Assembly: GCA_964016885.1 (NCBI GenBank)
Contig: OZ024755.1
Span: 7,068,001 to 7,132,000, forward strand
Direction: 5' to 3'
Length of the DNA stretch: 64,000 nt
DNA from: Eledone cirrhosa
Taxonomy: Eukaryota
Shown here: positions 14,322 to 47,693 of the stretch, piece by piece
Numbering within the stretch: the first letter of the stretch is position 1
Layout: each line of letters begins with the position of its first letter
Made by a program: the position numbers and the translations under genes
The notes under the pieces: generated by a model
What the model was told of the DNA's origin: nothing
The model's input: the letters and a program-made list of their open reading frames with translations, nothing else
The model's database searches: none

Positions 14322-15457
14322 GACATTGATTAAAACAGCTGTTTTTCTCTACATCAACCATCATAAACACTAATACCATTCAACTAGCAAACCGAGCTTA
14401 AAATAAAGTATATAAGATATTGTAGATGCAGCTTGGCAGAATGGTTAAGTTGTTTTCTTCGTAATCATTTGGTTCCAAGTTCAATCCCACGGCATTGCTG
14501 CATCTAGGAGATGTGTCATTTAGTATATTTTTTTCATGTCAGTCCAAATCTTGTGAGTGGAAAAGTGTAGAAGCCCATCGGATGAACTTCTTCGCCTACT
14601 TATTCCTGAGACAGTCGTGGAGGGTGAGTCATCAGACACTCGTTTCAGAGGGTCCTGTCAGAAGCAACTGACTTCATACTGATCTAGTTGGATCCCTAAG
14701 CTCGACCAGCCAAGCTCATGGACGTTAATCCATCTTAACATCAGATGAACTGTACCTGCAATTCAAAGGGCTATCTCTGATACACTGAATTCTAATAATT
14801 ACGTTAATGGTACGTATGTCAGAGGAATACCCAGCCACTTTCACTTTGATTTAATAAGCAGGCCGTTCCATTGATTGAACAAGTGGAGCATTCATGGTTG
14901 AAACCTACGGTGGTTACTTCCAAATATTTGTTTCAAAGTATCAGTTTAGGCAGAATCATTAAATCATTAGTTAACATGATTTGCAACGCAACATAGTTCT
15001 GGTTCTTTACAATCAGAGTTCAAATCATGCTGAGGTCAACTTTATCTTTCTTCCTTCTGGGGTCGATATAATCGCCCAAATTAATTTAGGAGGTGGATTG
15101 GTAGAACCGTTGGACAACCCAATAAAAGGCTCTGTAACATATTCCAGTTTTGAGTTCAAATCCCATAGACAACAACTTCACCTTTCTAAGGTTGTTAACC
15201 CTTTAGCATTTAAACCAGCCATAATTACCTCACCCCTTTCTGTTCAAACCAGCCATAACTGGCCACTCATACTTATGTTAAGGTATTGTTCTCAAAATAA
15301 ATAATATCAAATTTTCGTACATCCCTATGCTGTGATGATCTATAACATTGTATAAAAAGGTTTAACTACAAATAACAAGAACAAACAATGATCATAAAGA
15401 TTCCACCAGTCTTTATTTCAACCAAACAAGACCTCAAGCTACCACATACCTTCCTTC

Positions 15458-15628
15458 CTAGGAAGTAGAAGTGGCCTTTACTGCACTTTTAGATTCAATT
15501 TTAGCAGCAGCTCTTTTGGCCATCTTAATTTTGTGCCTCTCTTCCTTCAATTGACTTCTCTCCTCTTTAGGAATTAGCCTGTTGTGTTTTCGAGCAAACC
15601 GCAGATTCCTCAAATACTTCCTGTCAAC
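15458..15628 (-). CDS. RPL29: 60S ribosomal protein L29 (eL29), last coding exon
   Basis: TAG acceptor, then VDRKYLRNLRFARKHNRLIPKG...KATSTS*. AATAAA on the minus strand at 15412-15417. Confidence 0.93.
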   Translation of the reverse strand, partial: VDRKYLRNLRFARKHNRLIPKEERSQLKEERHKIKMAKRAAAKIESKSAVKATSTS

Positions 15629-15959
15629 CTACAATTGAGAATAAAAGTCAAAATATGACGTAAAATATAATAATAAAAAAAAAAAAGAGGCTGGCAAATA
15701 CAGTACATTGTTATTAATAATCTAGTGTTAAAAAATAGATATCGTGACAAAAAAGCCATAAAAAAAAAAAAAAAAATTGCAGAAGATATTTACGATTCCA
15801 TGAACAATTATTAGTTAGGTTCTATGGAAAATTCCGCTAATGCTGGGGGTACACTGTATTGCAGTAATTATTTTCAGAGAAAAAGAAAACCTCATATAAC
15901 TGACCAACAGGATATATTACAATATTTTAGGAACTTTATATAAATAAGAGAGTACTTAC

Positions 15960-16024
15960 ACCATTCATAGACGGGCATCGGCTTCTTTTTGGTCTGTAAA
16001 TACCATTACGGTGAGCTTTACTGT
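15960..16024 (-). CDS. RPL29: RPL29 coding exon 2
   Basis: TTCCAG acceptor and GTAAGT donor; encodes (N)SKAHRNGIYRPKRSRCPSMNG; phase joins both neighbouring exons. Confidence 0.93.
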
Positions 16025-16101
16025 CTGGAACAAGGAAAAATAGAAATAGAAAATAAATAACAGATCTTTAAATGAAAGTGTCAGTGAAAAAATGTGATAT
16101 T

Positions 16102-16240
16102 GTATGTCCCTGGGGTTAAACGGCACACCACAGTCAATGTATGACTGAAATGCTTCCTGTCCAGGGTTTAATGTCATCTCCTATAAATGATACTGGCAGA
16201 TATGTAGTCATTAGAGAGGCTACACTCCGTGGCTGGAGAT
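16102..16240 (-). ncRNA. SNORA65: H/ACA snoRNA, SNORA65/snR34-like, copy 1
   Basis: Two hairpins, ANANNA candidates in the hinge, ACA 3 nt from the end. Pocket 1 GCCAC/GCCAGT fits 28S ACUGGC-Psi-U-GUGGC; pocket 2 GA(C/T)AGGAA/GCCG fits CGGC-Psi-C-UUCCUAUC. Confidence 0.85.
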
Positions 16241-16532
16241 ATTGGGATAAATCTATGATCATTACAGCACTATATTATACAGTACCATGTGTACACATGG
16301 TGTATATATATATTCATAGGGGGCAACACAAGTCCAAAGGATTTGAGAGTCACTAGACACTTGATGCAAGAAATCCTTGCCATATACACGGGTATAATAA
16401 TGTGGCACACATTAGGTTAGAATCTTCTTCAATGTTAAAAGCATGGAGTAATAATTGAAGAAAAAGTACATATATATAATAGTAGAGTTGTAGTTTATAG
16501 CACTGAGAAAAATAAAAAATTCAATTTTAGGA

Positions 16533-16658
16533 GATTTGTCCCGAGTGGACGCCTGTCACCAAAATCAATATTATGACTGTGGCAGGGTTTTAATATCTCG
16601 AAGGAGGCTAACAGATATGCAGTAATTAGCGAGGCACACACTAACCTCACCTGGATAT
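16533..16658 (-). ncRNA. SNORA65-derived H/ACA paralogue (family B), degenerate copy with a deletion
   Basis: Homologous scaffold, ATATTA H box and ACA retained; the second hairpin is partly deleted. Confidence 0.4.
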
Positions 16659-17057
16659 ATTGATAAATCAGTGATCAATAACAAATAATACAGTAGAAAG
16701 AAATTATTATAGATTATCCACTAACAAATCTTATGTACAAAAAAAACTATACACCATTATCTTATTTTATACTGTTTTAATCCTTTAACCACTTAGCATT
16801 TAAACCGGCCAGAATTCTTTCACTGATAAAAGATAAACAAATCTTGAAACAGCACTGCATGACATTCCCAAAATGTACTGGCAACTCTGATATACTCACA
16901 AAGAAAATAAGAAAAAGTTTTTGTTACGAAAAAATATTTTTCTTTGGTAGCACGGCTACCCATGCTTCTTGTATATAAACAGATATGTATTTCTTTATAT
17001 ATACTTCTATTATGCTTAAATACTGTCTTAGTTCTACCACCAATTAATTCTGATATT

Positions 17058-17195
17058 GAATGTTCCTGGGGTTAAACGGCACACCTCAGTCAACGTATGA
17101 CTGAATGCTTCCTGTCCAGGGTTTAATGTCATCTCCTATAAATGATACTGGCAGATATGTAGTCATTAGAGAGGCTACACTCCGTGGCTGGAGAT
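17058..17195 (-). ncRNA. SNORA65: H/ACA snoRNA, SNORA65-like, copy 2
   Basis: Near-identical to copy 1, boxes and pockets retained. Confidence 0.8.
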
Positions 17196-17265
17196 ATTGG
17201 GATAAATCTATGAACATTACAACACTATATTATAAAGTACCATGTGCACTGAACATTATATATAC

Positions 17266-17342
17266 AGGGTGTCCCGCAAAAATGTATATGTACTTCAACA
17301 GAATTCTAATCAAAGTGTGCATATACTTTTTAGGGACACTAT
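17266..17342. mobile_element. Tiny Tc1/mariner-type MITE (second copy ~18449-18525)
   Basis: TA-flanked CAGGGTGTCCCGCAAAAA ... TTTTTAGGGACACT ends; a related end lies at ~14250-14268. Confidence 0.55.
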
Positions 17343-17632
17343 ATATATATTCAAGGGGGCAACAAGTCGAAAGGATTTGATGAAGTTACTAGACACTTAA
17401 TGCAAGAAATTCTTGCCATATATATGCCTACCACAAACTATCAAACCCAAGCTGGTATGGAAATTGTGGGTTAAATTATGCGGCACACATGTAGGTAAGT
17501 TAGAATCTTCAATGTTAAAAGTATGAAGTAAATAATTTGTTTAATGTCCATATTCCATGCTAGCACGGTTTATAAATGATAATAGACTTGTAGTTTTTAG
17601 CACCGAGAATACTAAAAAAAAATTAGTTTTAG

Positions 17633-17769
17633 ATTTGTCCCCTGGCAAGATGTCACCAAAATCAATATTATGACTGAGATGACCCTGACCGCAGGGTTTT
17701 AATATCTCCAAGGAGGCCAGCAGATATGCAGTCATTAGGGAGGCTACACACCAACCTCACCTGGATATA
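17633..17769 (-). ncRNA. SNORA65-derived H/ACA paralogue (family B)
   Basis: Stems TCCAGG/CTTGGA and CCCTG/CAGGG, H box ATATTA, ACA+3. Pocket 2 is CGGTCAGG / ATCTTGC. Confidence 0.55.
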
Positions 17770-18241
17770 TTGACAGAGGTCAGAGTGGGTCTACACGGAT
17801 GCCCCCCCCCCCCCCCATATATATGTTTTGCCGTCTGAAGAACTCAGGCTATCATAACTGATAGTCCTCAGTGAAATATGTACAACAGAGTTTTAAATAA
17901 CCCAGAATCAACTGAATATGGCCTCCAATCTTTTATTAATATATATATATTCTAATAAGTATGAATCAAAGTTGTAGCTGCCTTACAGCAGGTGCCCCTA
18001 TATATACTCATACATACCCTGCTAAAAACAGTTCTGGTTCTATCAATCACAAACCACACACATGTGGGGAACAATACAGCTATGTTAAACAAGCCTATTT
18101 CTTGCAAAGTGAAAAAGAAATCTATTTATTTACCACTGCTTCAACAAGTTTACAAACTACTTTAGGAGTTATGAACCTGGTGTTATACTTCTATTATGGT
18201 TAAAAACTGTCTTAGTTCTACCACCAATTAATTCTGATATT

Positions 18242-18379
18242 GAATGTTCCTGGGGTTAAACGGCACACCACAGTCAACGTATGACTGAATGCTTCCTGTC
18301 CAGAGTTTAATGTCATCTCCTATAAATGATACTGGCAGATATGTAGTCATTAGAGAGGCTACACTCCGTGGCTGGAGAT
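18242..18379 (-). ncRNA. SNORA65: H/ACA snoRNA, SNORA65-like, copy 3
   Basis: Near-identical to copy 2. Confidence 0.8.
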
Positions 18380-18748
18380 ATTGGGATAAATCTATGAACA
18401 TTACAACACTATATTATAAAGTACCATGTGCACTGAACATTATATATACAGGGTGTCCCGCAAAAATGTATATGTACTTCAACAGAATTCTAATCAAAGT
18501 GTGCATATACTTTTTAGGCACACTATATATATATATTCAAGGGGGCAACAAGTCGAAAGGATTTGATGAAGTTACTAGACACTTAATGCAAGAAATCCTT
18601 GCCATATACAGGGATAATAATGTAGGTTAAGTCAGAATCTTCTTCAATGTTAAAAGCATGGAGTAATAATTGAAGAAAAAGTACATATATATAATAGTAG
18701 AGTTGTAGTTTATAGCACTGAGAAAACTAAAAAATTCAATTTTAGGAG

Positions 18749-18893
18749 ATTTGTCCCCTGAGGGGTCCGAATGCCTGTCACCAAAATCAATATTATGACT
18801 GAGATGACGGCATGGTAGGGTTTTAATATCTCCAAGGAGGCCAGCAGATATGCAGTCATTAGGGAGGCTACACACTAACCTCACCTGGATATA
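18749..18893 (-). ncRNA. SNORA65-derived H/ACA paralogue (family B)
   Basis: Same scaffold and boxes. Pocket 2 is ACCATGCC / AGGCATTCGGACC. Confidence 0.5.
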
Positions 18894-19559
18894 TTGATAA
18901 ATCAATGATCAATAACAAATAATAAAGTAGAAATAAGTTACTATAGATTACTCACTAATAAATCTTATGTACAAAAAAACTATACACCATTAACTATCTC
19001 ACTGGATCCTCCTCAGTATTAACCCTTTAGCATTTACATCATATATGCTATTGTAAGGTAGACACTTTATTTCACACAACATCGAATCTATGAGATTTGG
19101 ATATTTATTTTGAGAACAATACCTAAACATAAGTATGAGCAGCCGGTTTGAACAGAAAGAGGTGAGAGAATTGAACCATAAAATCAATAGTAATATGATA
19201 AAACCTCTTCTTACAAGTATGCTGAGACACCTTTTCAAGCCCTTCTAGTCAATCGCAATAGCACCCCCTCCCAGTATGGTATTTTATAACTTTTTCTGAA
19301 ACTGCTGAGTTAAACAACTAGTACGTAATATCTAGGAAGTATAATTTAGAAATATACCTAGCCTGACGTCTTGTCAAGATGTTTCTTCAAAAGAGATATT
19401 TATCTAAAAAATCTTCCATCGTAATTTTATGGAAGAACTTTTGATAAATTGTGCCAAACATTAAAGTTAGGGTAACAGTTAATCATTATTATTATTTTTA
19501 ATTATTGCATGACTAAGTTATAGAATTTAATTAAAAGATAAGTTATTAGAACAAAGAGG

Positions 19560-19698
19560 TTATGTCCCTGGGGTTAAACGGCACACCACAGTCAATGTAA
19601 GACTGAAATGCTTCCTATCCAGGGTTTAATGTCATCTCCTATAAATGTTACTGGCAGATATGTAGTCATTAGAAAGGCTACACTCCGTGGCTGGAGAT
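19560..19698 (-). ncRNA. SNORA65: H/ACA snoRNA, SNORA65-like, copy 4
   Basis: Pocket variant GATAGGAA; similarity to the other copies stops at the predicted 5' end. Confidence 0.85.
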
Positions 19699-20410
19699 GT
19701 AAAATAAAATTTTTCTTTTTTACTTAGGGAGGGCCAACAGCAGTGAACTCTGCTAAAGACATTCAAGGAACAGGTGAGGATTTGAACTAATTTCACAAAG
19801 GGATGAACAGAACAAGCTCTAATGATTTCACCAGTCCACAATCCTAGATTGGGAACCTAACTCTTTAGATACCAATTTGCCAAAAACCAACCCTGGTTCT
19901 TTATTTAAATTTTCGAATTTTTATATAACAATGTTAGTTTACACTTTTAATAATGAGAAATTATAAAATTTAAGATAATCCTCAGAAATTAATTGAAGCA
20001 GAGAATTTCATTAGAAACAGTCACAAAAGGGTCAATTTATCCATTTTGAAAGGGTGAAAAGCAGATAAAATTGAATGATCCAGGGGCCATTTGCATACAT
20101 ACATTTCAATTTGGACTTTGTTGTTTCTACAGCTGGATGCTCTTTCTAACAACCACTTTACAGAGTGTAGTGGGTGCATTGTTTTGTGGTGGCAGCACTA
20201 AAGAGGTTGTCATGTCCTATACACACGCCAAAGGAATGCCTTAAATGGTTCCGTTACAGTGATTGTAGTTGTTAAAAGCAGAATCAATAACTGGAATGAT
20301 ATACAGGTCTCTGGATATAAAAACCTGAGATATAAAGATGGAATTGCTGACGGGTTACTTCTTCAAGGATAATGAAAAGAGATGACATTTGGCTCTTCAC
20401 CCGACTTTAA

Positions 20411-20621
20411 CCCTTTAGCATTTAAACCGGCTGTACCTGGCCAGAATTCTCTCACCTCTTTCTATTGAAACTGGCTGCTCATACTGATGTAAAGGCATTG
20501 TTCTCAAAATAAATAACATTAAAATCTCGTTGATTCGATACTATGTGATATAATTATGTAAGATAAAGCTTTTACCACAAAAATACAGTAGTATATGTAG
20601 AGTAATGTAAATGCTAATGGG
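20411..20621. mobile_element. piggyBac-like MITE
   Basis: TTAA-CCCTTTAGCATTT ... AAATGCTAATGGG-TTAA. Partial copies at ~15196, ~19020, ~26290-26380, ~28048 and ~59370-59580. Confidence 0.65.
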
Positions 20622-20678
20622 TTAAACTCAGCTTACAAATAAGCACAGACACATGTATGCATGGTAATGTATTTAAAA

Positions 20679-20811
20679 CAATGTATGATGCAATGTGACA
20701 TCTGGTGTGATCATGGTGAAACCCAGAAAACAAAGAAACATCACATTAATTTAGCATCCAACTTTCCCCCCAACTGTGACATAGAGGCCAGAGTGGGTCT
20801 ACAGGGATGCC
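20679..20811 (-). ncRNA. Box H/ACA snoRNA candidate (family C), target unassigned
   Basis: Hairpin 1 closed by GCATCC/GGATGC, H box AAATTA, hairpin 2 closed by GTGATG/CATCAT, ACA+3. Similarity to the 25526-25660 copy ends exactly 3 nt past ACA. Confidence 0.7.
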
Positions 20812-21649
20812 CCCCCCCTTCACACACAACACTCTTCTTTTACAGTTTTCATCCACCCAAATTTCACTGACAAGGTAATAGTATCTTACACTTGCCTGAG
20901 GCACAAGCTAGTGCCCCCCCCCCCCATAAGGTGATAAAAGCCGACCGTGACCTCTGGCGTCGCGCAGTAATACAGAATACCCGACTACAAGCCGAAGCTG
21001 AAGCATATAGACAATATATGCCCCCCCCCCCCACTGCAAAGTAGCAGTGTAGGCGCCAGGGAATAAAACCACCCACCACTCACTGTAAATGAGGTTGGTG
21101 TTAGGAAGGGCATCCAGCTGTAGAAGTCAAGCCAGAATCAGTTCCCGTATGAGTAAGGCATGGTCAGCCGACTGGACACTGCCCACAAGACAACCCGTCT
21201 AACCCATGCTAGCGTGGAAGAACGGACGTAAAACAGTGATGATTTTCATGCTGGCATAGAGATTAACTTGATCATACATTTCATATACCCACTATCCCTA
21301 CTCCATCCTCCCACTCCCACCCTTTCTCTGTAAAGTTATGTTGGTACCACAACAGCCAACTAATGAGATCGAGATTGTGTAGGTGTCACGACAAAAAAAA
21401 AACACCCCACGCTGTAATGTGGGCCGTGTAGGTAACACAGTAAAAAGTTCCCAGTCCACACTGTAAATGTGCTTGGTGTTAGGAAGAGCATCTAGCCGTA
21501 GAAAACTCGCCAGATAGTACTATACGAGCGAGACATGCTCACTCGACCAATCTTGCCTCAAGTGGGACAACTCCTGTCTAACCCATGCTAGCGTGAAAGA
21601 TAGACGTTAAACGATGATAATTAGGAGGAAAAAGAAAAAAAAAACTTAC

Positions 21650-21686
21650 TCTGGTTGTGATTCGTATGATTCTTCGACTTAGCCAT
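21650..21686 (-). CDS. RPL29: RPL29 coding exon 1
   Basis: Encodes MAKSKNHTNHNQ (the eL29 N-terminal signature) plus 1 nt, with a GTAAGT donor. A TTTCAG acceptor puts the exon start at 21705. Confidence 0.95.
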
Positions 21687-22645
21687 CTTGTGGAACTAAT
21701 TATATCTGAAATATATAAAATAAACATTTGTAAACCTAGCAAACTTATTAACACCAACATAGATACAACTGAAAATATCGTTTACAAAATAAATAATTTA
21801 AATATTAAATTAAATCAGGTGTTTACATTATATTTATTATTGTATTTTCATGGTCAACACTTTATTTCACATAATTATCTCATATATAGAATCTAGGAGA
21901 TTTTGATATTCATTTTGAGACTACTTAAGCATTGGTATGCATGACCAGTTACAACCGGTTTGAACAGAAAAAGGTGAAAGAATTCTGGCCAGTTTAAATG
22001 TGGTGACACTACTTATAAGTTGCTCTTGTGAAATAAATATTTGCCCTCGTGAGAAAATACCTATCTTAGCACACGCACACACACACACACGTGTATGTAT
22101 GTGTGCAAGATAAACTATACCACGCTTAGAACATCTTATACTGCTTTAACATAACATGGGAACATTAATTTATGTAGGAATGCTACTAACACTACACTGA
22201 TGAGAAAGAGATTATCAGTGCATTCGTTAATAAAGGGTCACTGATTACAAAGAATCTAATATAACAATCTAAGATATATATCTACAATTAAACATTGTGT
22301 ATTAGCAGTACAGATACTAAAGAAAGAAAAAAATAAAATTAAAATAATACTCCTCACCAATTTATTTAAAATATTTTAGCCAGCAGCCTCCTCTCTAAAA
22401 CCTTATTTCCCAGCCTGGCAGAGAAGCAGTTCTACTGGCTGAAAGCTTAAAGAAGGGAGAGGAGAGGGAGATACAATGGAATAGGCCTGTCTGACAGTCT
22501 GTGAGTGGGATATCAATTGCCCCCTCCAGCAACCAAATGGAATAATCTGAAGACTTAATACAAAAAGAACTATCAACAGTGTGCGTGCTTCAGACACAAG
22601 GAAGACATTGGTTGTACAGGAACAGGACAATGTGTACAAAGTAAC

Positions 22646-22811
22646 ATGGCAAGGGATGATCCACTTACACATATTCAATCTGGCACTAAAGACATTGACA
22701 AAGAGAACTTGTCCAGTTCTACCAGTGCCTTGCTTCATAATGAAACGGAATTGGTTGTTACATATATCTCAGTTACCCTTATAGGATTTATCATCATTGC
22801 AGGAACTACAG
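22646..22811 (+). CDS. Class A GPCR exon 1 (N-terminus and TM1)
   Basis: N-glycosylation sequons NLS and NET, hydrophobic TM1. The G|GTAAGC donor splices in phase to 27600 and rebuilds the TM1 'GN' motif (GTTGNILVILAV). Confidence 0.8.
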
Positions 22812-23341
22812 GTAAGCCCTCCATGATTCAATTTTTCAGAACTTGTTGCAATACAAAATGTTCAACTATTCTATTTTAGATTGCTAAACTAATTCAACAT
22901 CAACATGTCCAAGATCACTTGATTCTTATACAAAATATCTCATTAACGCTTTCATCACATTTCTGAATCACTGCCTATGATTTTGAAAATAATTTAAACA
23001 CATTGGCAGTGAATTTCATTAGAAATATACTAAGTTTTTAGATAAATATAAACATTTAAAATAAAATTTTGCACTGTAGAACCAGAGCTGGTTTCAGATT
23101 TTATAATCGTACATAAGATGCTTTATTGGTAAATTATGATCTATACATAATTTATGAACTAGTTAATTTACTAAGTCCAATTTTTTTTTTATTGATTTTC
23201 AAAAGTAATTAAAAACCATGCATTCCTAAACATATTGTAATTAGTTTGTTTTTTTTACATACAATATGTGATTTTTCTAATAGATGCTTCTTAAGTAACA
23301 GTATATTGTTGAAGGTTAATTACTAAATGAAAATGGCAATT

Positions 23342-23484
23342 GTATGTCCCTGGGGTTAAACGGCACACCACAGTCAATGTATGACTGAAATGCTTCCTGT
23401 CCAGGATTTAAGATTTAATGTCATCTATAAATGTTACTGGCAGATATGTAGTCATTAGAGAGGCTACACTCCGTGGCTGGAGAT
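23342..23484 (-). ncRNA. SNORA65: H/ACA snoRNA, SNORA65-like, copy 5 (hinge indels, possibly impaired)
   Basis: Pockets intact; a short insertion and a 3-nt deletion lie around the hinge. Confidence 0.6.
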
Positions 23485-23853
23485 ATTTACATTATAATTA
23501 CATTGTGTGTTGAATATATCAATTAGTTAAAAACACTTAAAAGTAAGCAACTTTCTATGGTTAAATCACCAACTGTAGCTTATCGTGCCACCAGCACTAC
23601 AAAGAGGCTATCAAATGAAAACTAGACTGGCAGAATCTCTTCTGAACACTTACACACAAACAATTAACATATGTGCAATTTTAAAGGAACTGATAACAGT
23701 CAGGTCTAAAATATGTACCATGTTATGTGATTTAGCATGAAAACAAAAGCCTTTTGATAAAATAAGGGTAACATATCAGTTAATCATTATTATTATTTTT
23801 AATTATTGCATGTTATAGAATTTAATTAAAAGATAAGTTATTAGAACGAAGAG

Positions 23854-23992
23854 GTATGTCCCTGGGGTTAAACGGCACACCACAGTCAATGTAAGACTGA
23901 AATGCTTCCTATCCAGGGTTTAATGTCATCTCCTATAAATGTTACTGGCAGATATGTAGTCATTAGAGAGGCTACACTCCGTGGCTGGAGAT
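23854..23992 (-). ncRNA. SNORA65: H/ACA snoRNA, SNORA65-like, copy 6
   Basis: Pocket variant GATAGGAA; boxes intact. Confidence 0.85.
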
Positions 23993-24076
23993 ATTGGGAT
24001 AAATCTTATGAACATTACAGCACTATACTATACAGTACCATGTGTACACATGGTGTGTGTATATATATATCATCAT

Positions 24077-24116
<40 letters not shown>

Positions 24117-24261
24117 GGGGCAACACAAGTCAAAGGGTTTGAGAAAGTCACTAGGCACTTGATGCAAGAAATCCTTGCCATATACAGGGATAATAATGTA
24201 GGTTAAGTCAGAATCTTCTTCAATGTTAAAAGCATGGAGTAATAATTAAAGAAAAAGCTTA

Positions 24262-24296
<35 letters not shown>

Positions 24297-24401
24297 GGAA
24301 TACTGTTGGCTTCTTGCTACAATAATTTCTATACTTTATATATATATAAGTAGACTTGTAGTTTATAGCACTGAGAAAACTAAAAAATTCAATTTTAGGA
24401 G

Positions 24402-24541
24402 ATTTGTCCCCTGAGTGAATGCCTGTCACCAAAATCAATATTATGACTGAGATGACAGTGTGGCAGGGTTTTAATATATCCAAAAACGCCAGTAGATATG
24501 CAGTCATTAGGGAGGCTACACACTAACCCCACCTGGATATA
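24402..24541 (-). ncRNA. SNORA65-derived H/ACA paralogue (family B)
   Basis: Same scaffold and boxes. Pocket 2 is CCACA / GCATTCACT. Confidence 0.5.
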
Positions 24542-24901
24542 TTGATAAATCAGAAATAATACAGTAGAAATAAATCACTATAGATTATCCAACAAATCTT
24601 ATGTACAAAAAAACTATACACCATTATCTTATTTTATATTGTTTTAATCCTTTAACCATTTAGCATTTAAACTGGCCAGAATTCTCTCACCACTTTCACT
24701 GATAAAAGATAAACAAATCATGAAACAGCACCGTATGACATACTCAAAATATATATTCAGAGGAAATTAGACAAAAAAATATTTTCTTCGGCAGCAAGGC
24801 TACTCATGTTTCTTCTATATAAACAGATATGTATTTCTTTATATATACTTCTATTATGCTTAAATACTGTCTTAGTTCTACCACCAATTAATTCTGATAT
24901 T

Positions 24902-25040
24902 GAATGTCCCTGGGGTTAAACGGCACACCACAGTCAATGTATGACTGAAATGCTTCCTGTCCAGGGTTTAATGTCATCTCCTATAAATGTTACTGGCAGA
25001 TATGTAGTCATTAGAGAGGGTACATTCCGTGGCTGGAGAT
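24902..25040 (-). ncRNA. SNORA65: H/ACA snoRNA, SNORA65-like, copy 7
   Basis: Boxes and pockets intact. Confidence 0.82.
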
Positions 25041-25525
25041 ATTGTGACAAAACCAGTTAGTATGTTAGTCTACATGTAAACATTAAGATACAAAATATTT
25101 TTAACTCATGATCACCTGAAATCACTCTTGGCTCTACAATACTTAATTTTGAAAGTTTTTAGATCCACCTAAAAATTTATAACTGTAAGAACTGAGTTTA
25201 AACCCCAGTTTAACACTTTTGTAACTATTTCTAATGAAATACAATTTTAACTAATAAAGTATTTAACGATTTGTTAAGCCCATTAATATCATTACTAAGA
25301 TAGTAACTTAAAACATGTATCATATAAATATTGGGAAATACCCTTTAAAGTATGCAGTTTGTGATTCATAGAATCACAGAACCAGAACTGTTTCTTTGGC
25401 TGGGTTAGTATAAAAAAAAGTTTAAAATTCACAATCATTTTCAAAATAACTTAATTTCCACATTTAGACATGTAGTGATGGAAAGATTAAAACATGTCTT
25501 TAATGATACACGTGTGTTTGAAGGG

Positions 25526-25660
25526 CAATGTATGATGCAATGTGACATCTGGTGTGATCATTATGAAACCCAGAAAACAAAGAAACAACATCACATTAAT
25601 TTAGCATCCAACTTTCCCCCCAACAATGACAAAGAGGTCAGAGTGGGTCTACAGGGATGC
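25526..25660 (-). ncRNA. Box H/ACA snoRNA candidate (family C), copy 2
   Basis: Same boxes and closing stems as 20679-20811. Confidence 0.7.
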
Positions 25661-26096
25661 ACCCCCCCCCCATATATATGTTTTGCCGCCTGAAGAACTC
25701 AGGCTATCATAACTGATAGTCCTCAGTGAAATATGTACAACAGAGTTTTAAATAACCCAGAATCAACTGAATATGGCCTCCAATCTTTTATTAATATATA
25801 TATATTCTAATAAGTATGAATCAAAGTTGTAGCTGCCTTACAGCAGGTGCCCCTATATATACTCATACATACCCTGCTAAAAACAGTTCTGGTTCTATCA
25901 ATCACAAACCACACACATGTGGGGAACAATACAGCTATGTTAAACAAGCCTATTTCTTGCAAAGTGAAAAAGAAATCTATTTATTTACCACTGCTTCAAC
26001 AAGTTTACAAACTACTTTAGGAGTTATGAACCTGGTGTTATACTTCTATTATGGTTAAAAACTGTCTTAGTTCTACCATCAACTAATTCTGATATT

Positions 26097-26235
26097 GAAT
26101 GTCCCTGGGGTTAAACGGCACACCACAGTCAATGTATGACTGAAATGCTTCCTGTCCAGAGTTTAATGTCATCTCCTATAAATGATACTGGCAGATATGT
26201 AGTCATTAGAGAGGCTACACTCCGTGGCTGGAGAT
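26097..26235 (-). ncRNA. SNORA65: H/ACA snoRNA, SNORA65-like, copy 8
   Basis: Boxes and pockets intact. Confidence 0.82.
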
Positions 26236-27599
26236 ATTGGGATAAATCTATGATCATAGCACTACAGTAGGATTTACACTCAGAAGTTCATCAAAATTTC
26301 GTAGATTCCATATTACATTTATCTATTTTGAGAACAATACCTTAATGTCAGTATGAGTAGCCGGTTTAAATGCTAAAGGGGTAATAAGGGTTGTTGCATA
26401 AAAATTATAAAGGTTAAGATTTTAGATAAAATAAACACTTTGAAATAAAGTTTTATGCTGTAAAACAAGGGGCAGTTTCAGGTGATAATAAAAGGATTTA
26501 AATATTCAAGTAAACCCCTTAACTTCACAGGAGGCTGGCTAAACCTATGCAGGTGTTTGCACTAACAACAAATAAGCATCCGAGATATTTTTTTAAAGGA
26601 AAAGAAACATGACAGCCCCACAACACAGATATATTAAAACCAAATCTAAATTTTAGATTCCCCAACTTCCTTATAGAATAATTTTGAAAATACCTCTAAC
26701 TACATTTACTAAAAATAAGTCCAGTTTGAATTATTGAATACAGTAAAGTTCCTTTTATCAGTGTTAGGTGTATAAGATGTTTAAAGTGCTAATCCCAATT
26801 AATATTCTTCAAGGAGTAAAACCCTTTCATATCTAAAATTCAAATCAAGACCTTACACACCTCATATACTGCAAGCTGAGAAAGAGATAAGTAAATACTT
26901 AAAAAGATAACCATGTAAATTATCAGCAAGCATATTCTAAAGTTACCATAGACAGGAGCATCTAAGAAGTTGATTTAGTTTTGAGCCTTAAATAACAGCT
27001 GGCATACCAACATTTTAATATCAGGGATGACTAAATATTAAAAACATTCACTGAATTCAATATTAAGAAGATTAGCAAATATGGTGAAAGTCATTTAAAA
27101 TAAATTTACCAAATACAAGGTAAAGGGTTGCTATTAATTGTTTCTAATTTTGGCACAAGGCCAGCAATTAACCAGTGCATTACTGGTACTTTATTTTATC
27201 GACCCCGTAAGGACGAAAGGCAAAGTTAACTTCTAGGGATTTGAACTCAGAATGGCAAGGGCCGTCTGAAACTATGCGTCAAAGCATGGCGTCCGACCCT
27301 CTACCGATACTGCCAATCCACCGCCCTTACGGTACTAATAATACTGAAGTGCAAGTGACCACAAGAGAATTACACATTAAATTCAAACCTTGCTAACATT
27401 GATTTAGTATTTATCATATATAAAGTCCATTATATTCCACATTACCAAGACATCCTTAATAAAAACAAATAGATACCCAATTAGAAATATGGTAATGAAA
27501 GGGTTCATTTCATGTTTTATGTGACCATTCTAATTCCAAATATACATATATAGTGAAATATAATGATGGAAATTATCAAAGTTTTCTCTATTTTCACAG

Positions 27600-27803
27600 G
27601 AAACATCTTGGTTATTCTGGCTGTGAAGACGTACAAGAAATTACAGACGCCTTCCAATATATTTATTGTTAATCTCAGTATAGTGAACTTATTGTTTGAT
27701 CTCTTTGTCTTACCATTCCATGCTTATACCAATATGAACAAAGCTGTAGGAATAAGCCCACTTCTATGCAGGCTTATTGCAGTTGTCGACTATGCACTAA
27801 CAG
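27600..27803 (+). CDS. Class A GPCR exon 2 (TM1 end to TM3)
   Basis: TTTTCACAG acceptor; encodes LQTPSNIFIVNLSIVNLL (TM2) and the TM3 Cys (LCR); GTGAGT donor. Confidence 0.9.
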
Positions 27804-28441
27804 GTGAGTAATTATATCAGTTTTATACTTGCTGCATCATGAGACGACACTTTTTGAGTTGTTTATGCAGGACGATAATCGTATATAAGAACCATATGTT
27901 AAGTTATTTTAATAACAAAATAATTCAAGTAAATTCCTCAAGTTTCTTAATTTCAATGAGGAATAGTCACAACAGTTAAAATCCATTTAAAATTGATTAA
28001 TGTAAATTGTTAAATATTAGGTCAAATTATAGACTGCTATCAAAATTTAACCCTTTAGCATTTACATTACTCATTATATACTATTGTATTTTTGTGGTAA
28101 AGACTTTATCTCAAATAAACTATGATGTTTTGATATTTTATTTTGAGAATACATAACGTTGGTATGAGTGGTCGTTTTGTACAGAAAAGCAGAGAGAATT
28201 CTGGTCGGATCTGGCCGGTTTAATGGGGATTCTAAAAAAAAACATTCTGCCAAAATCAATCAAATAGTAAATCTGTTATCATATATTTAAATCTTCCATC
28301 ATAATCCAATACAAAAACTTTTAGTTAAGTAATGTTCTAAAACTTTATTATTTTCAAAATTATTTGGAAAATTGTAGACAAGTGTATTTCATAAGAAATA
28401 TGATAACAAAAGGGTTTTAAACATTTTTTATTTCTTTGCAG

Positions 28442-29208
28442 GCACAACCATTATGACAATAATCTTAATAGCCTACAATCGTTACAAACTGGTGGCTAAC
28501 TACCACAAATATATTGACCATTTCAACCAAACAAACGTTGCAGCAATGTTGTGTGTGGCCTGGTTATTACCACTGATGTGTCTAGTGCCACCCCTCTTAG
28601 AAGTCTGGGGTAAATTTGGTTATGTCGACCAACTCTCAACATGTAATCTATTTGAAGATGAGCTGCTTTTCAAAGACACGTTACTCCTACTGCGCACTCT
28701 CACACCGAGTCTCCTTATCATCTATTTCTACATACGCATCTGCCAAGCTTCAAAAGCCAGCCTCTTGAGAATGCCTTCTTTAAAAGATTCTATCAGTTCA
28801 CAACAGCGAGAACGGAACGAGAAACACATGACTAAGATGGTGTTAACTATTATCTCCCTCTTCATCATATTCTACTTCCCCTGTACAATTACTGCTATCA
28901 TAGACCTCTATTACAAACTCTCGAAACCCCATCACCTTTTCTGCAGACTCTGTATATATTTTGGCAGTGCTGTAAATCCACTAATATATGGTTTAATGAA
29001 TTCACAATTTAGCAAAGCATATAAAAAACTTATAAGCTGCAGTCTTGAAAATATGAAGCCAAATATTCCACCTGTAACTGTCATCCACTTGAACACTCTG
29101 ATAATGAAACCAACCTCACATATGGGGCTGAGTTTCGTATCTATCCTACCTAAAAACACTGATACACTCACATCAAACATTTTAATAAATGAAAAACAAA
29201 TTCCTTAA
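28442..29208 (+). CDS. Class A GPCR exon 3, Moody/Tre1/melatonin-receptor-like (NRY)
   Basis: TTTGCAG acceptor; IAYNRY, TM4 W, ECL2 Cys, FYFP in TM6, NPLIY in TM7. Spliced CDS is 1137 nt (378 aa). Confidence 0.9.
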
Positions 29209-29767
29209 AATATCAAATGTCGAGTAACCCTCTCATCATCAAAATATCACCATATGTATATATATATTCATTTTAAGAAATTAAACTGTTGAAAAATTAC
29301 TTTTGCTTTTCCTTATTACATTACCTTTTCTACACACTGTAAATGTGGTTGGTGTTAGGAAGGGCACCCAGCCGTAGAAAACCTGCCAAACAGTCTTATA
29401 CAAGCGAGACACGGTCACCCGAGCAATCTTGCCTCAAGTGGGACAATTCCCGTCTAAACCCATGCTAGCGTGGAAGATAGAACGATGATGATGACACCAT
29501 TTTCATTTTAATGCATGTATATAGAGGTGCACAATAAATGGTTTTTTTTATTTATATTTTAATTCATTGATTGCAAGAGACTGGACTCTACAGTTGTGAG
29601 CCTTGAGATCAACATATAACCTCTAAGTTAACGTCACATTTCAAATGGCCCCCACAGAAAAGAAAAAAATCCAAATTAGACATTTAAAACACGATTAACT
29701 CCTATGGTGCGTGACCTTTGCCTCACCCTCTACATAAAGACACACATTACAAGCAACATAAATACAA

Positions 29768-33725: not shown

Positions 33726-33760
33726 CTTCTTCTCAGTTCTGCAGCAATGGCGGAAAAGGG
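33726..33760 (-). promoter_or_regulatory. RPL29: Probable RPL29 non-coding first exon with 5'TOP/TCT initiator
   Basis: Minus strand TTCCCCCTTTTCCGCCATTGC...GAAGAAG|GTAAGC: a pyrimidine-tract start plus a strong donor. All snoRNA candidates lie between this exon and the RPL29 3' end on the same strand. Confidence 0.7.
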
Positions 33761-33965
33761 GGAATAATCCATGAACAGGAAACAAAAGAGTTATATCTAG
33801 GGAGATAATATATATTACATCCGGTTTTCAATTAAACTCTTCGATATATTTTTTATTTGCTCATTAAATTATGTAACTAGTTGCAATAAATTAAGACATT
33901 TTTCAATCTATAGATTAAAAATATTAATGATATAATTTACAAAAGGGACAAATCAAATACCGAAT

Positions 33966-34183: not shown

Positions 34184-35860
34184 CTTCCAAATATACCTTA
34201 CCTATGGGGTCCTTCTGAAGGGTCTTTGGAGTAATGTTACTCGATAGGATGCATATTTTGAAGATCAGGGAGTCACTACTTTTCTGAATCAAAAGATCAC
34301 CATTCCGATATTATAGACATGCAGTTAGAATGGTAATTGAGTTTGCATGTCTTATCCCACATTCTCCTCTATTTTTTACAATATATACAATTGAATATGA
34401 ATTAATTATTACGTAGCTTCTTAAACCAGAAATCCAAAAGACAGATTGTATGGTTGCTTAGAAAACGGTGATTGAAAGTTGAAAATTGAATTACATTCTT
34501 TCACTGTATTTTTGACTAATGCAAATAGTCTATTAACAGGGCATATAAGCCCCCTAAATGGGTCAGCATACATGGTGGTTGAACATGCACCCCCTGTTTT
34601 CTGGACAAATATATTGCCATTTATACCATGGGCATGTTGGTGTAAATGGTAACACACTTTGCAGCACATGGGAGGTGTGGGTTTAAAATTCATATATACT
34701 GATACCCCTTTTTTCCATTTAGGAGGCTTATATTCCCTGTTATTAAATCATTTTCTATAGTAAAAAATATAGCAAAAGCTTCTAATTCAATTTTTTTTAT
34801 AGATAGAGTGTATTTAATTATACTATTGATCTTTACAACCTATCACCATTAAGTCTGAAAGACGGTAATATTCATGGTTATCTATGATTACAATCTAAAG
34901 AGACTCCAGAATATCTAACAACAACCTTCATTATAAAATGATTCCTACAATAGACACAAGGCCAGCAATGTGAGAGGAGAGGAAAGTCAATTAAATTGAC
35001 CCCATTACTAGTATTTTATTTTATTGACCCGTAAGGATGAAAGGCAAAGCTAACCTCGGCGGGATTTTTAACTCGGAACGTAAAGGAACATAACTCTATA
35101 CTGTAAAGCATGGTGCCTGACACTCTACCAATACTACTAATCCATTACCCTAAACCTTCATTATGTAATAAAATTCTATGATAATATTCTTTGTGTAACA
35201 CAAAAACAAATACAGGACTCGTTTCCAGAGAACCTAATTCTATAAATAGGTTTTTACATCAACAAAATGTTATATAATAGTTTCATTACTAAATAATTTC
35301 AATCAGACATAATATTTTCATTATGGAATATTTTTTGTAGTTTTAATTATTCAACAGCATTGCTATTCCTGGAATAATACAGTTGATGTCTTTAATTATA
35401 GAAACAGTAGTTAATCACATGTCATGAATTTGTTGGAATAAATTGTGTAACCACAATACAACAGTATAAATACAGGGTGGGACAAAAGTCACTTTTTACC
35501 TATTTTTATTAATAAAACTTTACTAATTAACTCAAAATTAATTTTTCTTGGAGGGTGTATTTTTCCATAATTGGATCCATAATTCAACTTAAATCTGAAA
35601 GAAAAAAATATATAATTTTAATAATTGTTTTTAATTTTGGCACAAGGCCAGCAAATACCCAGTGCATTACTGGTACTTTATTTTATCGACCCCGTAAGGA
35701 TGAAAGGCAAAGTTAACCTCAGCGGGAATTGAACTCAGAATGGCAAGGGCTGTAACTCTAAGTGTCAAAGCAAGGCGTCCGACCCTCTACCGATACTGCT
35801 AATCCACCGTCCCTATATAATTTTAATAATAAAAAAAATTATGATTTTTTAAAAATAGTG

Positions 35861-36722
35861 ACTGTGGTCTAATTGAACAGGTGTAGGTCTATATAGTACC
35901 TTCATCTATGTTAAAAGTACTGTGGTCTAATTGAACAGGTGTAGGTCTATATAGTACCTTCATCTATGTTAAAAGTACTGTGGTCTAATTGAACAGGTGT
36001 AGGTCTATATAGTACCTTCATCTATGTTAAAAGTACTGTGGTCTAATTGAACAGGTGTAGGTCTATATAGTACCTTAGTCTATGTTAAAAGTACTGTGGT
36101 CTAATTGAACAGGTGTAGGTGTATATAGTACCTTAGTCTATGTTAAAAGTACTGTGGTCTAATTGAACAGGTGTAGGTGTATATAGTACCTTAGTCTATG
36201 TCAAAAGTACTGTGGTCTAATTGAACAGGTGTAGGTCTATATAGTACCTTAGTCTATGTTAAAAGTACTGTGGTCTAATTGAACAGGTGTAGGTCTATAT
36301 AGTACCTTAGTCTATGTCAAAAATACTGTGGTCTAATTGAAAAGGTGTAGGTCTATATAGTAGCTTAGTCTATGTTAAAAGTACTGTGGTCTAATTGAAC
36401 AGGTGTAGGTCTATATAGTACCTTAGTCTATGTCAAAAGTACTGTGGTCTAATTGAAAAGTTGTAGGTCTATATAGTACCTTAGTCTATGTAAAAAGTAC
36501 TGTGGTCTAATTGAACAGGTGTAGGTCTATATAGTACCTTAGTCTATGTCAAAAGTACTGTGGTCTAATTGAAAAGTTGTAGGTCTATATAGTACCTTAG
36601 TCTATGTTAAAAGTACTGTGGTCTAATTGAACAGGTGTAGGTCTATATAGTACCTTAGTCTATGTTAAAAGTACTGTGGTCTAATTGAACAGGTGGTGGT
36701 CTATATAGTAGTTTAGTCTATA
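35861..36722. repeat. 58-bp minisatellite, ~15 units
   Basis: Unit ACTGTGGTCTAATTGAACAGGTGTAGGTCTATATAGTACCTTAGTCTATGTTAAAAGT. Confidence 0.95.
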
Positions 36723-39087: not shown

Positions 39088-39570
39088 ATGTCTACACCTG
39101 CTCGTCGTCGTTTAATGAGGGACTTTATGAAGCTGCAAGACGACCCTCCTGCGGGCGTCAGTGGTGCACCTACCGACAACAACATCATGCTGTGGAACGC
39201 TGTGATTTTCGGCCCGACAGACACACCATTTGAGGACGGTACCTTTAAATTAACCATCAAATTCACAGAGGAATACCCGAATAAACCACCGGCCGTACGT
39301 TTCTCTTCTAAAATGTTTCACCCTAACATCTATGCGGATGGCAGTATCTGCTTGGACATTCTCCAAAATCGATGGAGCCCCACATACGATGTATCTTCTA
39401 TACTAACATCTATTCAGTCGTTGCTTGACGAACCCAATCCCAACAGTCCTGCAAATAACCTGGCCGCCCAACTCTACCAAGAGAACCGACGTGAGTATGA
39501 GAAAAGAGTAAAGGCCATAGTAGAAGAGAGTTGGATCTATCAAGGTAATGGTGCTACTTCTTCGGAATAA
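39088..39570 (+). CDS. UBE2A: Ubiquitin-conjugating enzyme E2 of the Rad6/UBE2A-B family, intronless CDS
   Basis: [13 protein letters not shown]..., [25 protein letters not shown] with the catalytic Cys, PNPNSPAN; intact 160-aa ORF. Confidence 0.95.
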
Positions 39571-40525: not shown

Positions 40526-41291
40526 ATGGAGGCACATGGCTTAGTGGTTAGAGCATTTGCCTTGCAATCGAAAGGTTGTGAGTTCAATTCTCAGACCGGG
40601 TCATGTTGTTTCCTTGAGCAAGACGCTTTATTTCACATTGCTCCAGTTTACTCACCTGTAGAAATTATATGATAGGACTGGGGTCTATCATTCCACTGCA
40701 AAGTGGTCGTGAGGATGCCACGGCAAAAAAGCACCCAGCACTCACTGTAAATGAGGTTGGTGTTAGGAAGGGCATCCAGCTGTAGAAATCAAGCCAGAAT
40801 CAGTTCCCATCCCACCCTTGCAAGCAGGGAAAAGCGGACGTAAAATGGTGATATATATATATATACTCTCACCTGTTCAACAGTACTATCATCACAGACG
40901 AAGATATATATATATATATATATATAGGCTCTCACCTGCTGAAATAGAAAAAAGGATCTATCATCACAGACGAAGATATATATATATATATATATAGGCT
41001 CTGACCTGCTGAAATAGAAAAAAGGATCTATCATCACAGACGAAGATATATATATATATAGGCTCTCACCTGCTGAAATTGAAAAAGGGATCTATCATCA
41101 CAGACCAAGATATCATCATCATCATCATCCTCGTTTAACGTACACTTTCCACGCTAGCATGAGTTAGACGGGAGTTGTCCCTCTTGAGGCAAGGTTGGTC
41201 GGGTGACCGTGTCTCGCTCATATAGGACTATCTGGCAGGTCTTCTACGGCTGGATGCCCTTCCTAACACCAACCACATTTACAGTGTGGAA

Positions 41292-45932: not shown

Positions 45933-46005
45933 CATCCCTGGTGGGATTCGAACCCACGGCCTCTGGATTAGAAGTCCAGCGCGCTATCCGCTGCGCTACA
46001 GGGAC
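45933..46005 (-). tRNA. tRNA-Arg(TCT), intronless
   Basis: GTCCCTGTAGCGCAGCGGATAGCGCGCTGGACTTCTAATCCAGAGGCCGTGGGTTCGAATCCCACCAGGGATG folds as a cloverleaf; a downstream T run can act as terminator. Confidence 0.95.
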
Positions 46006-47620: not shown

Positions 47621-47693
47621 CATCCCTGGTGGGATTCGAACCCACGGCCTCTGGATTAGAAGTCCAGCGCGCTATCCGCTGCGCTACAGGGAC
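47621..47693 (-). tRNA. tRNA-Arg(TCT), identical second copy
   Basis: Same 73 nt with different flanks; T6 downstream. Confidence 0.95.

What the first reader, a model, noticed from the sequence alone, without database searches (positions are those of the whole stretch)
16102..26235. Eight-copy amplification of a SNORA65/snR34-like H/ACA guide inside RPL29 introns
Seen: eight ~138-nt copies, all on the RPL29 sense strand, four in each of two introns, with hairpin-hinge-hairpin-ACA structure. Known: yeast snR34 and human SNORA65 guide two pseudouridines in the peptidyl-transferase region (yeast 25S Psi2826 and Psi2880; contexts ACUGGC-Psi-UGUGGC and CGGC-Psi-CUUCCUAUC). Both pockets here fit those contexts. 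Human SNORA65 is hosted in RPL12, and vertebrates generally carry one snoRNA per intron. Inference: a host switch to RPL29 plus a polycistronic intronic cluster that needs endonucleolytic release or unannotated spacer exons.
Basis: partly seen in the sequence, partly recalled or inferred. Interest (0 to 1): 0.75.

Follow-up and report, generated by a model that had tools for sequence, protein, structure and literature searches.

The report
Guide-RNA cluster in RPL29 introns
An animal ribosomal-protein gene (RPL29) carries eight near-identical copies of a predicted small guide RNA, four in one intron and four in its likely first intron, whose two recognition pockets match two conserved uridines near the ribosome's catalytic centre; they are likely cut out as a cluster, an arrangement already described in fruit flies.

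Summary
Observation confirmed: eight 139-144-nt copies (89-99% alike) lie on the RPL29 strand, four in intron 2 and four in the inferred intron 1. Each pocket's best site among 1,848 uridines of this genome's rRNAs and U2 is the snR34/SNORA65 target, and the two sites are 54 nt apart as in yeast. Against a clean reading: Rfam SNORA65 scores are 19-24 bits (cut-off 70), pocket-to-box distances are 23 (or 13) and 17 nt, six copies have a C-A mismatch, and A5's lower stem is broken. In-gene copies change more slowly than their flanks (2.4% vs 5.6%), while an off-gene copy decays neutrally. RPL12 here lacks the RNA. RPL29 intron 2 hosts a single SNORA58 in another animal group, so it is an older snoRNA host. 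Intronic H/ACA clusters are known in Drosophila, so this is a variant of a known kind. Expression and release are untested. Boldest lead: each B paralog carries an AG|GT splice signal that could cut intron 2 into one-guide lariats.

The parts
33726..33762 (-). RPL29 exon 1, non-coding (inferred): pyrimidine-tract start and GTAAGC donor
   Evidence: sequence; CpG profile; no RNA support
21650..21705 (-). RPL29 exon 2 with start codon
15960..16024 (-). RPL29 exon 3
15458..15628 (-). RPL29 exon 4, coding part to the stop codon
16102..16241 (-). A1, SNORA65/snR34-like H/ACA RNA; ends 77 nt before the exon 3 acceptor; C-A mismatch in 3' pocket
17058..17196 (-). A2; C-A mismatch; 3' lower stem one pair shorter
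18242..18380 (-). A3; C-A mismatch; weakest fold (z -0.3)
19560..19699 (-). A4; perfect 4+8 bp 3' pocket
23342..23485 (-). A5; 5' lower stem broken, an ANANNA 15 nt from the pocket; C-A mismatch
23854..23993 (-). A6; perfect 4+8 bp 3' pocket; best Rfam SNORA65 score (24 bits)
24902..25041 (-). A7; C-A mismatch
26097..26236 (-). A8; C-A mismatch
16532..16660 (-). B1, paralog of A with closed 5' hairpin and a 12-nt deletion in the 3' hairpin; AG|GT site at 16650
17630..17769 (-). B2, paralog of A; AG|GT site at 17760; fused to a SNORA58 fragment
18750..18893 (-). B3, paralog of A; fold z -4.8; AG|GT site at 18884
24403..24541 (-). B4, paralog of A; weaker donor (GTGGGG) at 24532
20680..20812 (-). 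C1, SNORA58-like H/ACA RNA (42 bits, E 3e-5, cut-off 75); 5' pocket ranks first at 28S U3777
25527..25662 (-). C2, SNORA58-like H/ACA RNA (36 bits)
17775..17807 (-). 5' fragment of a SNORA58-like copy, edge of a 628-nt block 98% identical to 25633-26257
22646..29210 (+). Nested antisense rhodopsin-family GPCR gene (exons 22646-22811, 27600-27803, 28442 to about 29210); its first intron spans A5-A8, B4 and C2 on the opposite strand

Best explanation
This is a cluster of eight copies of one predicted box H/ACA guide RNA, the likely counterpart of yeast snR34 and human SNORA65, multiplied by local duplication inside two RPL29 introns and likely released from the spliced introns as separate RNAs that would direct pseudouridine at two 28S positions near the peptidyl-transferase centre. 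Shown: the copies, their strand, the mosaic of 0.3-1.2-kb duplicated blocks, and the pairing of both pockets to this genome's 28S (U4409 and U4463 of the 28S in L025). Inferred: transcription as part of the RPL29 pre-mRNA; assembly of H/ACA proteins on each copy; splicing and debranching; cuts in the 290-980-nt spacers followed by trimming to the protein-protected ends, as needed for any intron with several snoRNAs. Inferred for geometry: the 5' pocket reaches the usual 14-nt ruler either by looping out the 9 extra nt that follow the right arm, or by using the ANANNA 13 nt away without a lower stem. Several copies, not all, are likely active; A4 and A6 are the best guides for the second site. 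B units are likely decayed paralogs and C units ordinary SNORA58 guides carried in the same duplications.
For: Pockets fixed from the fold rank the expected sites first of 1,848 U positions (scores 30 vs next 21; 31 vs 25 for A6; 26 vs 25 for A1). The two sites are 54 nt apart, as U2826 and U2880 guided by snR34, the U65 homolog (PMC5778458 passages). Targets are intact in 11 of 12 rDNA stretches examined. Rfam SNORA65 aligns over hinge, 3' pocket and ACA, and the nematode ceN39 hairpin shows the same pocket. Substitutions in three homologous blocks: A bodies 10 of 412, spacers 42 of 748 (Fisher p 0.011), with 1 vs 128 gap columns; the off-gene copy on C28 shows 17 of 135 vs 26 of 281 (p 0.31) and has a damaged 3' pocket arm. 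For many pairs similarity ends at the RNA's own ends (flanks 38-55%). A snR34 5' hairpin without lower stem kept activity in vitro (PMC5778458 section 13). Removing distal pairs on the long arm only slowed the reaction 2-4-fold (10.1101/569061 section 5). Drosophila H/ACA genes are generally in intronic clusters (PMC3089462 passages).
Against: No expression, end-mapping or splicing data. Rfam scores are far below the cut-off: 5 of 8 copies listed at E up to 10, 19-24 bits vs 70. Pocket-to-box distances of 23 (or 13) and 17 nt lie outside the 14-16 nt rule (rule). Six of eight have a C-A mismatch and only 4 bp on the right arm of the 3' pocket; for A1 the expected site leads by one point only. 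The three blocks in the selection test are not independent (A6 used twice), and gene conversion would give the same pattern without function. No conserved cleavage hairpin stood out in the spacers. Animal genes mostly follow one snoRNA per intron (PMC11028025 section 3, part 1).
Confidence: 0.55

Rival explanations
1. Only one or two copies per intron are ever matured (for example A1 beside the acceptor, or A4 and A6); the rest are passengers of a duplication-prone intron, kept alike by gene conversion.
For: Duplicated blocks carry spacers, B units and a broken SNORA58 fragment alike. B units change at spacer-like rates, 4.5-10%. A 30-nt patch is 89-93% identical between A and B although their pockets differ, which suggests conversion. 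A5, A2 and A3 carry stem damage.
Against: The 5' pocket arms, the right 3' arm and ACA are invariant in all eight copies. In-gene bodies change more slowly than flanks, unlike the off-gene copy.
Confidence: 0.2
2. The introns are trimmed only from their ends, giving long RNAs capped by H/ACA particles (C1 to A1, about 4.7 kb; A8 to A5, about 2.9 kb), of the sno-lncRNA kind, with the inner copies acting as guides within one scaffold.
For: This is the expected product of exonuclease-only processing when an intron holds more than one snoRNA (sno-lncRNAs and SLERT recalled; the class is mentioned in PMC11028025). No common cleavage hairpin was seen in the spacers.
Against: No RNA data. Spacers are poorly conserved and full of indels. 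Drosophila clusters are described as snoRNA clusters.
Confidence: 0.1
3. Hidden splice sites restore one guide per lariat: each B paralog carries CAG|GT(G)AGG with a branch-like motif upstream and would act as a recursive splice point or spacer-exon donor.
For: The site is present in all four B units (16650, 17760, 18884, 24532); three are the top-scoring donor matches on the RPL29 strand in 15.6-27.5 kb. A YTRAY motif lies about 20 nt upstream in each. In intron 2 one B sits between every two neighbouring A copies.
Against: One origin copied with the unit. The motif YAG|GTRAG occurs 17 times in about 222 kb of background, about once per 13 kb. The scoring matrix was crude, recalled, and missed the gene's true donors. 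The off-gene C28 copy keeps the motif too. It would not separate A8, C2 and A7, or A6 and A5, in intron 1.
Confidence: 0.08
4. RPL29 starts near 22460, so A5-A8 lie outside the gene, in a separate non-coding transcript or untranscribed on that strand.
For: A pyrimidine run and a GTGAGG donor occur at about 22340-22470. The region holds a complete antisense GPCR gene.
Against: CpG is depleted there (0.19-0.33) and high at 30-34.5 kb. The 33726-33762 candidate has a start-site-like pyrimidine tract (motif recalled) and a consensus donor.
Confidence: 0.05
5. The array is an assembly artefact.
For: One block of 628 nt is 98% identical between the two introns.
Against: All eight bodies are distinct, flanks form a mosaic of 70-99% blocks in non-colinear order, exons are single, and an old off-gene copy of a B+A unit exists on C28.
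Confidence: 0.02

Closest known systems
Yeast snR34 / human SNORA65 (U65; Rfam RF00302)
   Same: Two-hairpin H/ACA layout; both pockets pair at the equivalent large-subunit sites, 54 nt apart; hinge, 3' pocket and ACA align to the Rfam consensus.
   Different: 19-24 bits vs cut-off 70; 8 more nt between the right arm and box H and 2 more before ACA than the consensus; eight copies; host RPL29 rather than RPL12 (human host recalled; a goat paper lists SNORA65 in the ZNF79-RPL12-LRSAM1 neighbourhood, PMC13316139 passages).
Intronic H/ACA snoRNA clusters of Drosophila melanogaster (Huang et al. 2004, PubMed 15288778; title seen in reference lists only; described in PMC3089462 passages)
   Same: Several H/ACA genes in one intron of a host gene; ribosomal-protein genes are common hosts.
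   Different: A non-insect animal with a 3-Gb genome; spacers of 290-980 nt; a paralog with closed pockets interleaved; a nested antisense GPCR gene.
SNORA58 (Rfam RF00418) in RPL29 intron 2 of another animal group
   Same: Same intron of the same host gene; one copy in 15 of 16 metagenome loci with the whole intron; 35-49 bits in 7 of 10 loci scanned.
   Different: There it is single and next to the acceptor, and no A-like RNA was found; here it is duplicated and the acceptor-proximal place is held by A1.
sno-lncRNAs such as SLERT (recalled)
   Same: More than one snoRNA in one intron.
   Different: Six to eight units per intron here; no RNA evidence for a long product.

Membership tests
Box H/ACA guide snoRNA | Hairpin-hinge-hairpin-tail fold | tested here: met
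   7 of 8 fold so with pockets open at a cost of about 5 kcal/mol; A5 lacks the 5' lower stem
Box H/ACA guide snoRNA | Box H (ANANNA) in the hinge and ACA 3 nt before the 3' end | tested here: met
   ACAUUA in all eight; ACA invariant; similarity between copies with unrelated flanks ends just after it. The true 3' end is not mapped.
Box H/ACA guide snoRNA | Target U 14-16 nt from box H or ACA | tested here: not met
   23 nt to ACAUUA (13 to AUAGGA, 18 to AGAUGA, both in the lower stem region; 15 in A5) and 17 nt to ACA. A looped-out segment would restore it; untested.
Box H/ACA guide snoRNA | At least 8 bp of two-part pairing around an unpaired U-N | tested here: met
   11 bp (5' pocket); 12 bp in A4 and A6, 11 with one mismatch in six copies
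Box H/ACA guide snoRNA | Stable small RNA bound by dyskerin, nucleolar | not testable with these tools
   no RNA holder listed
SNORA65/snR34 (RF00302, clan CL00042) | Rfam gathering score of 70 bits | tested here: not met
   19-24 bits in 5 of 8 copies; E 0.015 for A6 alone
SNORA65/snR34 (RF00302, clan CL00042) | 5' pocket for the U2826 equivalent and 3' pocket for the U2880 equivalent in one RNA | tested here: met
   rank 1 of 1,848 U sites each, 54 nt apart
SNORA65/snR34 (RF00302, clan CL00042) | Pseudouridine at both sites depends on this RNA | not testable with these tools
   needs modification mapping and knockdown
Intronic snoRNA cluster (Drosophila type) | Two or more snoRNA genes in one intron on the host strand | tested here: met
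   eight units between coding exons 2 and 3; no full spacer exon seen by a crude scan
Intronic snoRNA cluster (Drosophila type) | Separate mature RNAs come from one intron precursor | not testable with these tools
   no RNA data
SNORA58 (RF00418), C units | Rfam gathering score of 75 bits | tested here: not met
   42 and 36 bits, E 3e-5 and 7.5e-4
SNORA58 (RF00418), C units | 5' pocket pairs with the conserved 28S site | tested here: met
   C1 ranks 28S U3777 first, 7+5 bp with one mismatch
H/ACA guide, B units | Open pocket with a target shared by the copies | tested here: not met
   5' hairpin closed; no convincing shared site in rRNA or U2; other snRNAs not scanned
microRNA precursor, B units | Long stem with small-RNA reads from its arms | tested here: inconclusive
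   stem of about 27 bp, z -1.8 to -4.8; no Rfam match; supplement search covered little text

The most novel reading that the evidence does not exclude
A duplicated snoRNA turned into a splice signal: the B paralogs lost their guide pockets and gained AG|GT recursive splice points, so that RPL29 intron 2 is removed in steps and each lariat releases one SNORA65-type guide, while copy number makes up for a guide with stretched geometry and a mismatched pocket.
Probability: 0.07. Interest if true: 0.8.

Novelty: new variant of a known kind. Interest (0 to 1): 0.38.

Why it matters
If several copies are matured, multi-snoRNA introns are not a fly peculiarity among animals, and this locus offers a clean test of how they are processed: copy-specific variants let one ask which copies mature, and the three release routes (endonuclease, hidden splicing, long sno-ended RNA) make different predictions. 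The guide itself is a natural test of the 14-16-nt ruler at two conserved ribosomal sites. The conserved SNORA58 in RPL29 intron 2 shows RPL29 as a snoRNA host in at least two animal lineages. None of this changes a principle unless the recursive-splicing reading holds.

Tried and rejected
Rfam at gathering level over the window found only three tRNA matches. RF00302 over the genome found nothing at E up to 10, not even these copies (44 of 146,291 candidates scored), so it says nothing on other SNORA65 genes. Sequencing runs: no RNA holder listed; four runs of one study hold 15380-16260; no reads were laid, so splicing, expression and read support for the array stay open. PF00298 found the mitochondrial L11 gene, not RPL12; PF03946 found RPL12. 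Retroposed copies as indirect proof of a mature RNA: the five off-gene matches (C28, C1, C4, C3 for A; C28, C18 for B) were read around their ends; C28 and C1 include intron flank, C4, C3 and C18 are fragments, and no poly(A) tail after ACA was seen; rejected as evidence. A 28S variant that would repair the C-A mismatch: not found in 12 rDNA stretches. An unconstrained pocket scan gave chance hits as high as the true 3' site, so only fixed-pocket ranks are used. A strict pocket scan missed its own 5' control and its blank for that pocket is not used. C/D snoRNA scan of 15.6-27.5 kb: one low-complexity hit. B as a known octopus microRNA: supplement search of PMC9699675 read only 24,410 characters and skipped the PDF, no match, inconclusive. 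Covariation among the eight copies: none, uninformative. Literature searches: SNORA65 with snR34, 0 papers; snoRNA with mollusc, cephalopod or RPL29 terms, listings with nothing on this locus by title or abstract start; Huang 2005 not held.


Full report
Observation. They are 139-144 nt from the base of the 5' stem to ACA+3, 89-99% identical over all 28 pairs, and all on the minus strand, the RPL29 strand. Coding exons 21650-21705, 15960-16024 and 15458-15628 splice at AG/GT to a 91-aa RPL29, the only PF01779 match in the genome search. A1-A4 are in intron 2. A5-A8 lie upstream of exon 2. The best exon 1 candidate is 33726-33762, with a pyrimidine tract and a GTAAGC donor; CpG is depleted over 22-27 kb and near or above expectation in most bins at 30-34.5 kb. 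This is inference; no RNA was available.

What else is there. The same introns hold four B units, paralogs of A (72-75% over about 100 nt by BLAST for B2 and B3; 27-41 bits with the A model for B2-B4 and 7.6 for B1) that keep box H and ACA but have closed pockets, and two SNORA58-like C units (42 and 36 bits) plus a fragment. In transcript order intron 1 reads A8, C2, A7, B4, A6, A5 and intron 2 reads C1, A4, B3, A3, B2, A2, B1, A1: 14 units. A three-exon rhodopsin-family GPCR gene lies antisense inside intron 1. The array is a mosaic of duplicated blocks 70-99% alike, one of them (628 nt, 98%) shared between the two introns and cutting through a C unit. A decayed B+A segment without exons lies on C28, and fragments on C1, C3, C4 and C18.

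Guide identity. I took this genome's 18S, 5.8S, 28S and U2. With each pocket fixed at the base of its folded upper stem, the 5' pocket ranks 28S U4409 first of 1,848 uridines (6+5 bp; score 30, next 21) and the 3' pocket ranks U4463 first (4+8 bp in A6, score 31 vs 25; 4+7 with a C-A mismatch in A1, 26 vs 25). The sites are 54 nt apart, as yeast U2826 and U2880, which snR34, the U65 homolog, modifies (PMC5778458, passages). The target sequence is the same in 11 of 12 rDNA stretches; the twelfth is a decayed copy. Rfam agrees weakly: SNORA65 at 19-24 bits in 5 of 8 copies, cut-off 70, aligned well over hinge, 3' pocket and ACA. So the RNA is a predicted snR34/SNORA65-type guide by its pockets, but does not meet the Rfam score.

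Weak points of the guide. The 5' pocket is 23 nt from ACAUUA, the box that follows the lower stem and aligns with the Rfam box H; other ANANNA motifs lie at 13 and 18 nt. The 3' pocket is 17 nt from ACA. The rule is 14-16 nt (10.1101/569061, passage). Looping out the 9 nt after the right arm would give 14; alternatively the box at 13 nt could be used without a lower stem, and a snR34 hairpin lacking its lower stem stayed active in vitro (PMC5778458 section 13; the supplementary figure with the variants was not seen). Six copies have the mismatch; in snR34, loss of distal pairs on that arm slowed the reaction 2-4-fold, and short right arms mattered more (section 5). A5 has lost its lower stem; A2, A3 and A8 have small stem changes.

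Constraint. In three homologous blocks A bodies differ at 10 of 412 sites and spacers at 42 of 748 (p 0.011; blocks not independent), with 1 against 128 gap columns. The off-gene C28 copy differs at 17 of 135 against 26 of 281 in its flank (p 0.31). B units change at 4.5-10%, like spacers. Many A pairs share nothing beyond the RNA's ends. This fits selection on the in-gene copies, but gene conversion can mimic it.

Host. The RPL12 gene of this genome (C11) shows no A-like RNA by BLAST, pocket patterns, Rfam over the 10 kb holding its coding exons, or the A model over 40 kb. A scan of metagenome contigs for the RPL29 exon 2 end gave 50 loci. Sixteen belong to one group of related animals and hold all of intron 2; 15 of these carry one SNORA58 motif about 205-235 nt before exon 3 (about ten distinct introns), and Rfam gave SNORA58 at 35-49 bits in 7 of the 10 loci scanned. 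None of the 50 matched the A model (best E 1.3); intron 1 is only partly covered and a model from eight near-identical copies has limited reach. The lineage of these animals was not determined. RPL29 intron 2 is thus an older snoRNA host that here also holds the SNORA65 type; the direction of the host change is open.

Mechanism. Most likely the copies are transcribed with RPL29, bound by H/ACA proteins, spliced out, cut apart in the spacers and trimmed (all inferred, 0.55). Rivals: only one or two copies mature (0.2); the introns yield long RNAs with snoRNA ends (0.1); hidden splice sites divide the intron (0.08); A5-A8 are outside the gene (0.05); artefact (0.02). The splice idea rests on CAG|GT(G)AGG 9 nt inside each B unit with a branch-like motif upstream. 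It would give one A per lariat in intron 2, but the motif arose once, occurs about once per 13 kb by chance (17 in about 222 kb), persists in the off-gene copy, and does not resolve intron 1.

Comparison. Animal hosts mostly follow one snoRNA per intron, but intronic clusters are a recognised class (PMC11028025, section 3 part 1), and Drosophila H/ACA loci are generally clustered in introns (PMC3089462, passages; Huang 2004 seen as a title only). Host changes and target changes of duplicated snoRNAs are common (PMC6984369, passages). My searches showed no paper on this locus (listings only; subscription journals are mostly not held). Two unchecked notes of this scan describe a 20-copy intronic snoRNA array and a tandem SNORA65-like array in other genomes, which suggests such amplifications recur.

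Verdict. Real, correctly identified in its targets, richer than reported, and a variant of a known arrangement. Interest 0.38; the recursive-splicing reading has probability about 0.07 and would deserve 0.8.

Noticed in passing
window 22646-29210 (+): Three-exon rhodopsin-family GPCR gene nested antisense in the inferred RPL29 intron 1; its first intron covers A5-A8, B4 and C2, so joint expression could form double-stranded RNA over the guides.
   Followed up: partly
L020, L022, L023, L024 (G000 C4 and C12 rDNA): 28S copies carry a 1,158- or 1,238-nt insertion replacing four bases at the site recalled as the R2 retrotransposon target; L021 begins with the same insertion, L025 is uninterrupted. 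Too short for a full R2; possibly a non-autonomous element.
   Followed up: no
window 39088-39570 (+): Intronless 160-aa ubiquitin-conjugating enzyme ORF (PF00179, E 5e-54), Rad6/UBE2A-like by its start (recalled), about 5 kb beyond the RPL29 start.
   Followed up: partly
window 45933-46005 and 47621-47693 (-); 40537-40594 (+): Two equal-scoring tRNA genes with anticodon UCU and one weak tRNA-like match.
   Followed up: no
window about 35860-36720: Tandem array of a unit of about 45 nt, about 19 copies, read by eye.
   Followed up: no
window 19102-19172 and 20445-20515: Inverted arms of a repeat element (71 nt, 90% complementary) flank A4 and could loop it out in the pre-mRNA.
   Followed up: no
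window 26861-26875 and about 22358-22445 (-): Two candidate non-coding micro-exons in the inferred intron 1 (acceptor and donor matches); neither lies between A copies.
   Followed up: partly
window 16503 (-) and matching places after B3 and B4: An acceptor-like tract about 30 nt downstream of the B units' ACA, lost in B2; no matching donor found before the next A.
   Followed up: partly
window 15960-16024 and 15458-15628 (-): This RPL29 differs from the metagenome RPL29 peptides in exon 3 (RSRCPSMNG where those have motifs such as SQRYPSLKG) and has a charged C-terminal tail.
   Followed up: no
L082 and L088, 560 and 1,420 nt upstream of exon 2: Two 85-nt copies (88% alike) upstream of RPL29 exon 2 in the other animal group; not an A-like RNA, unexplained.
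   Followed up: partly
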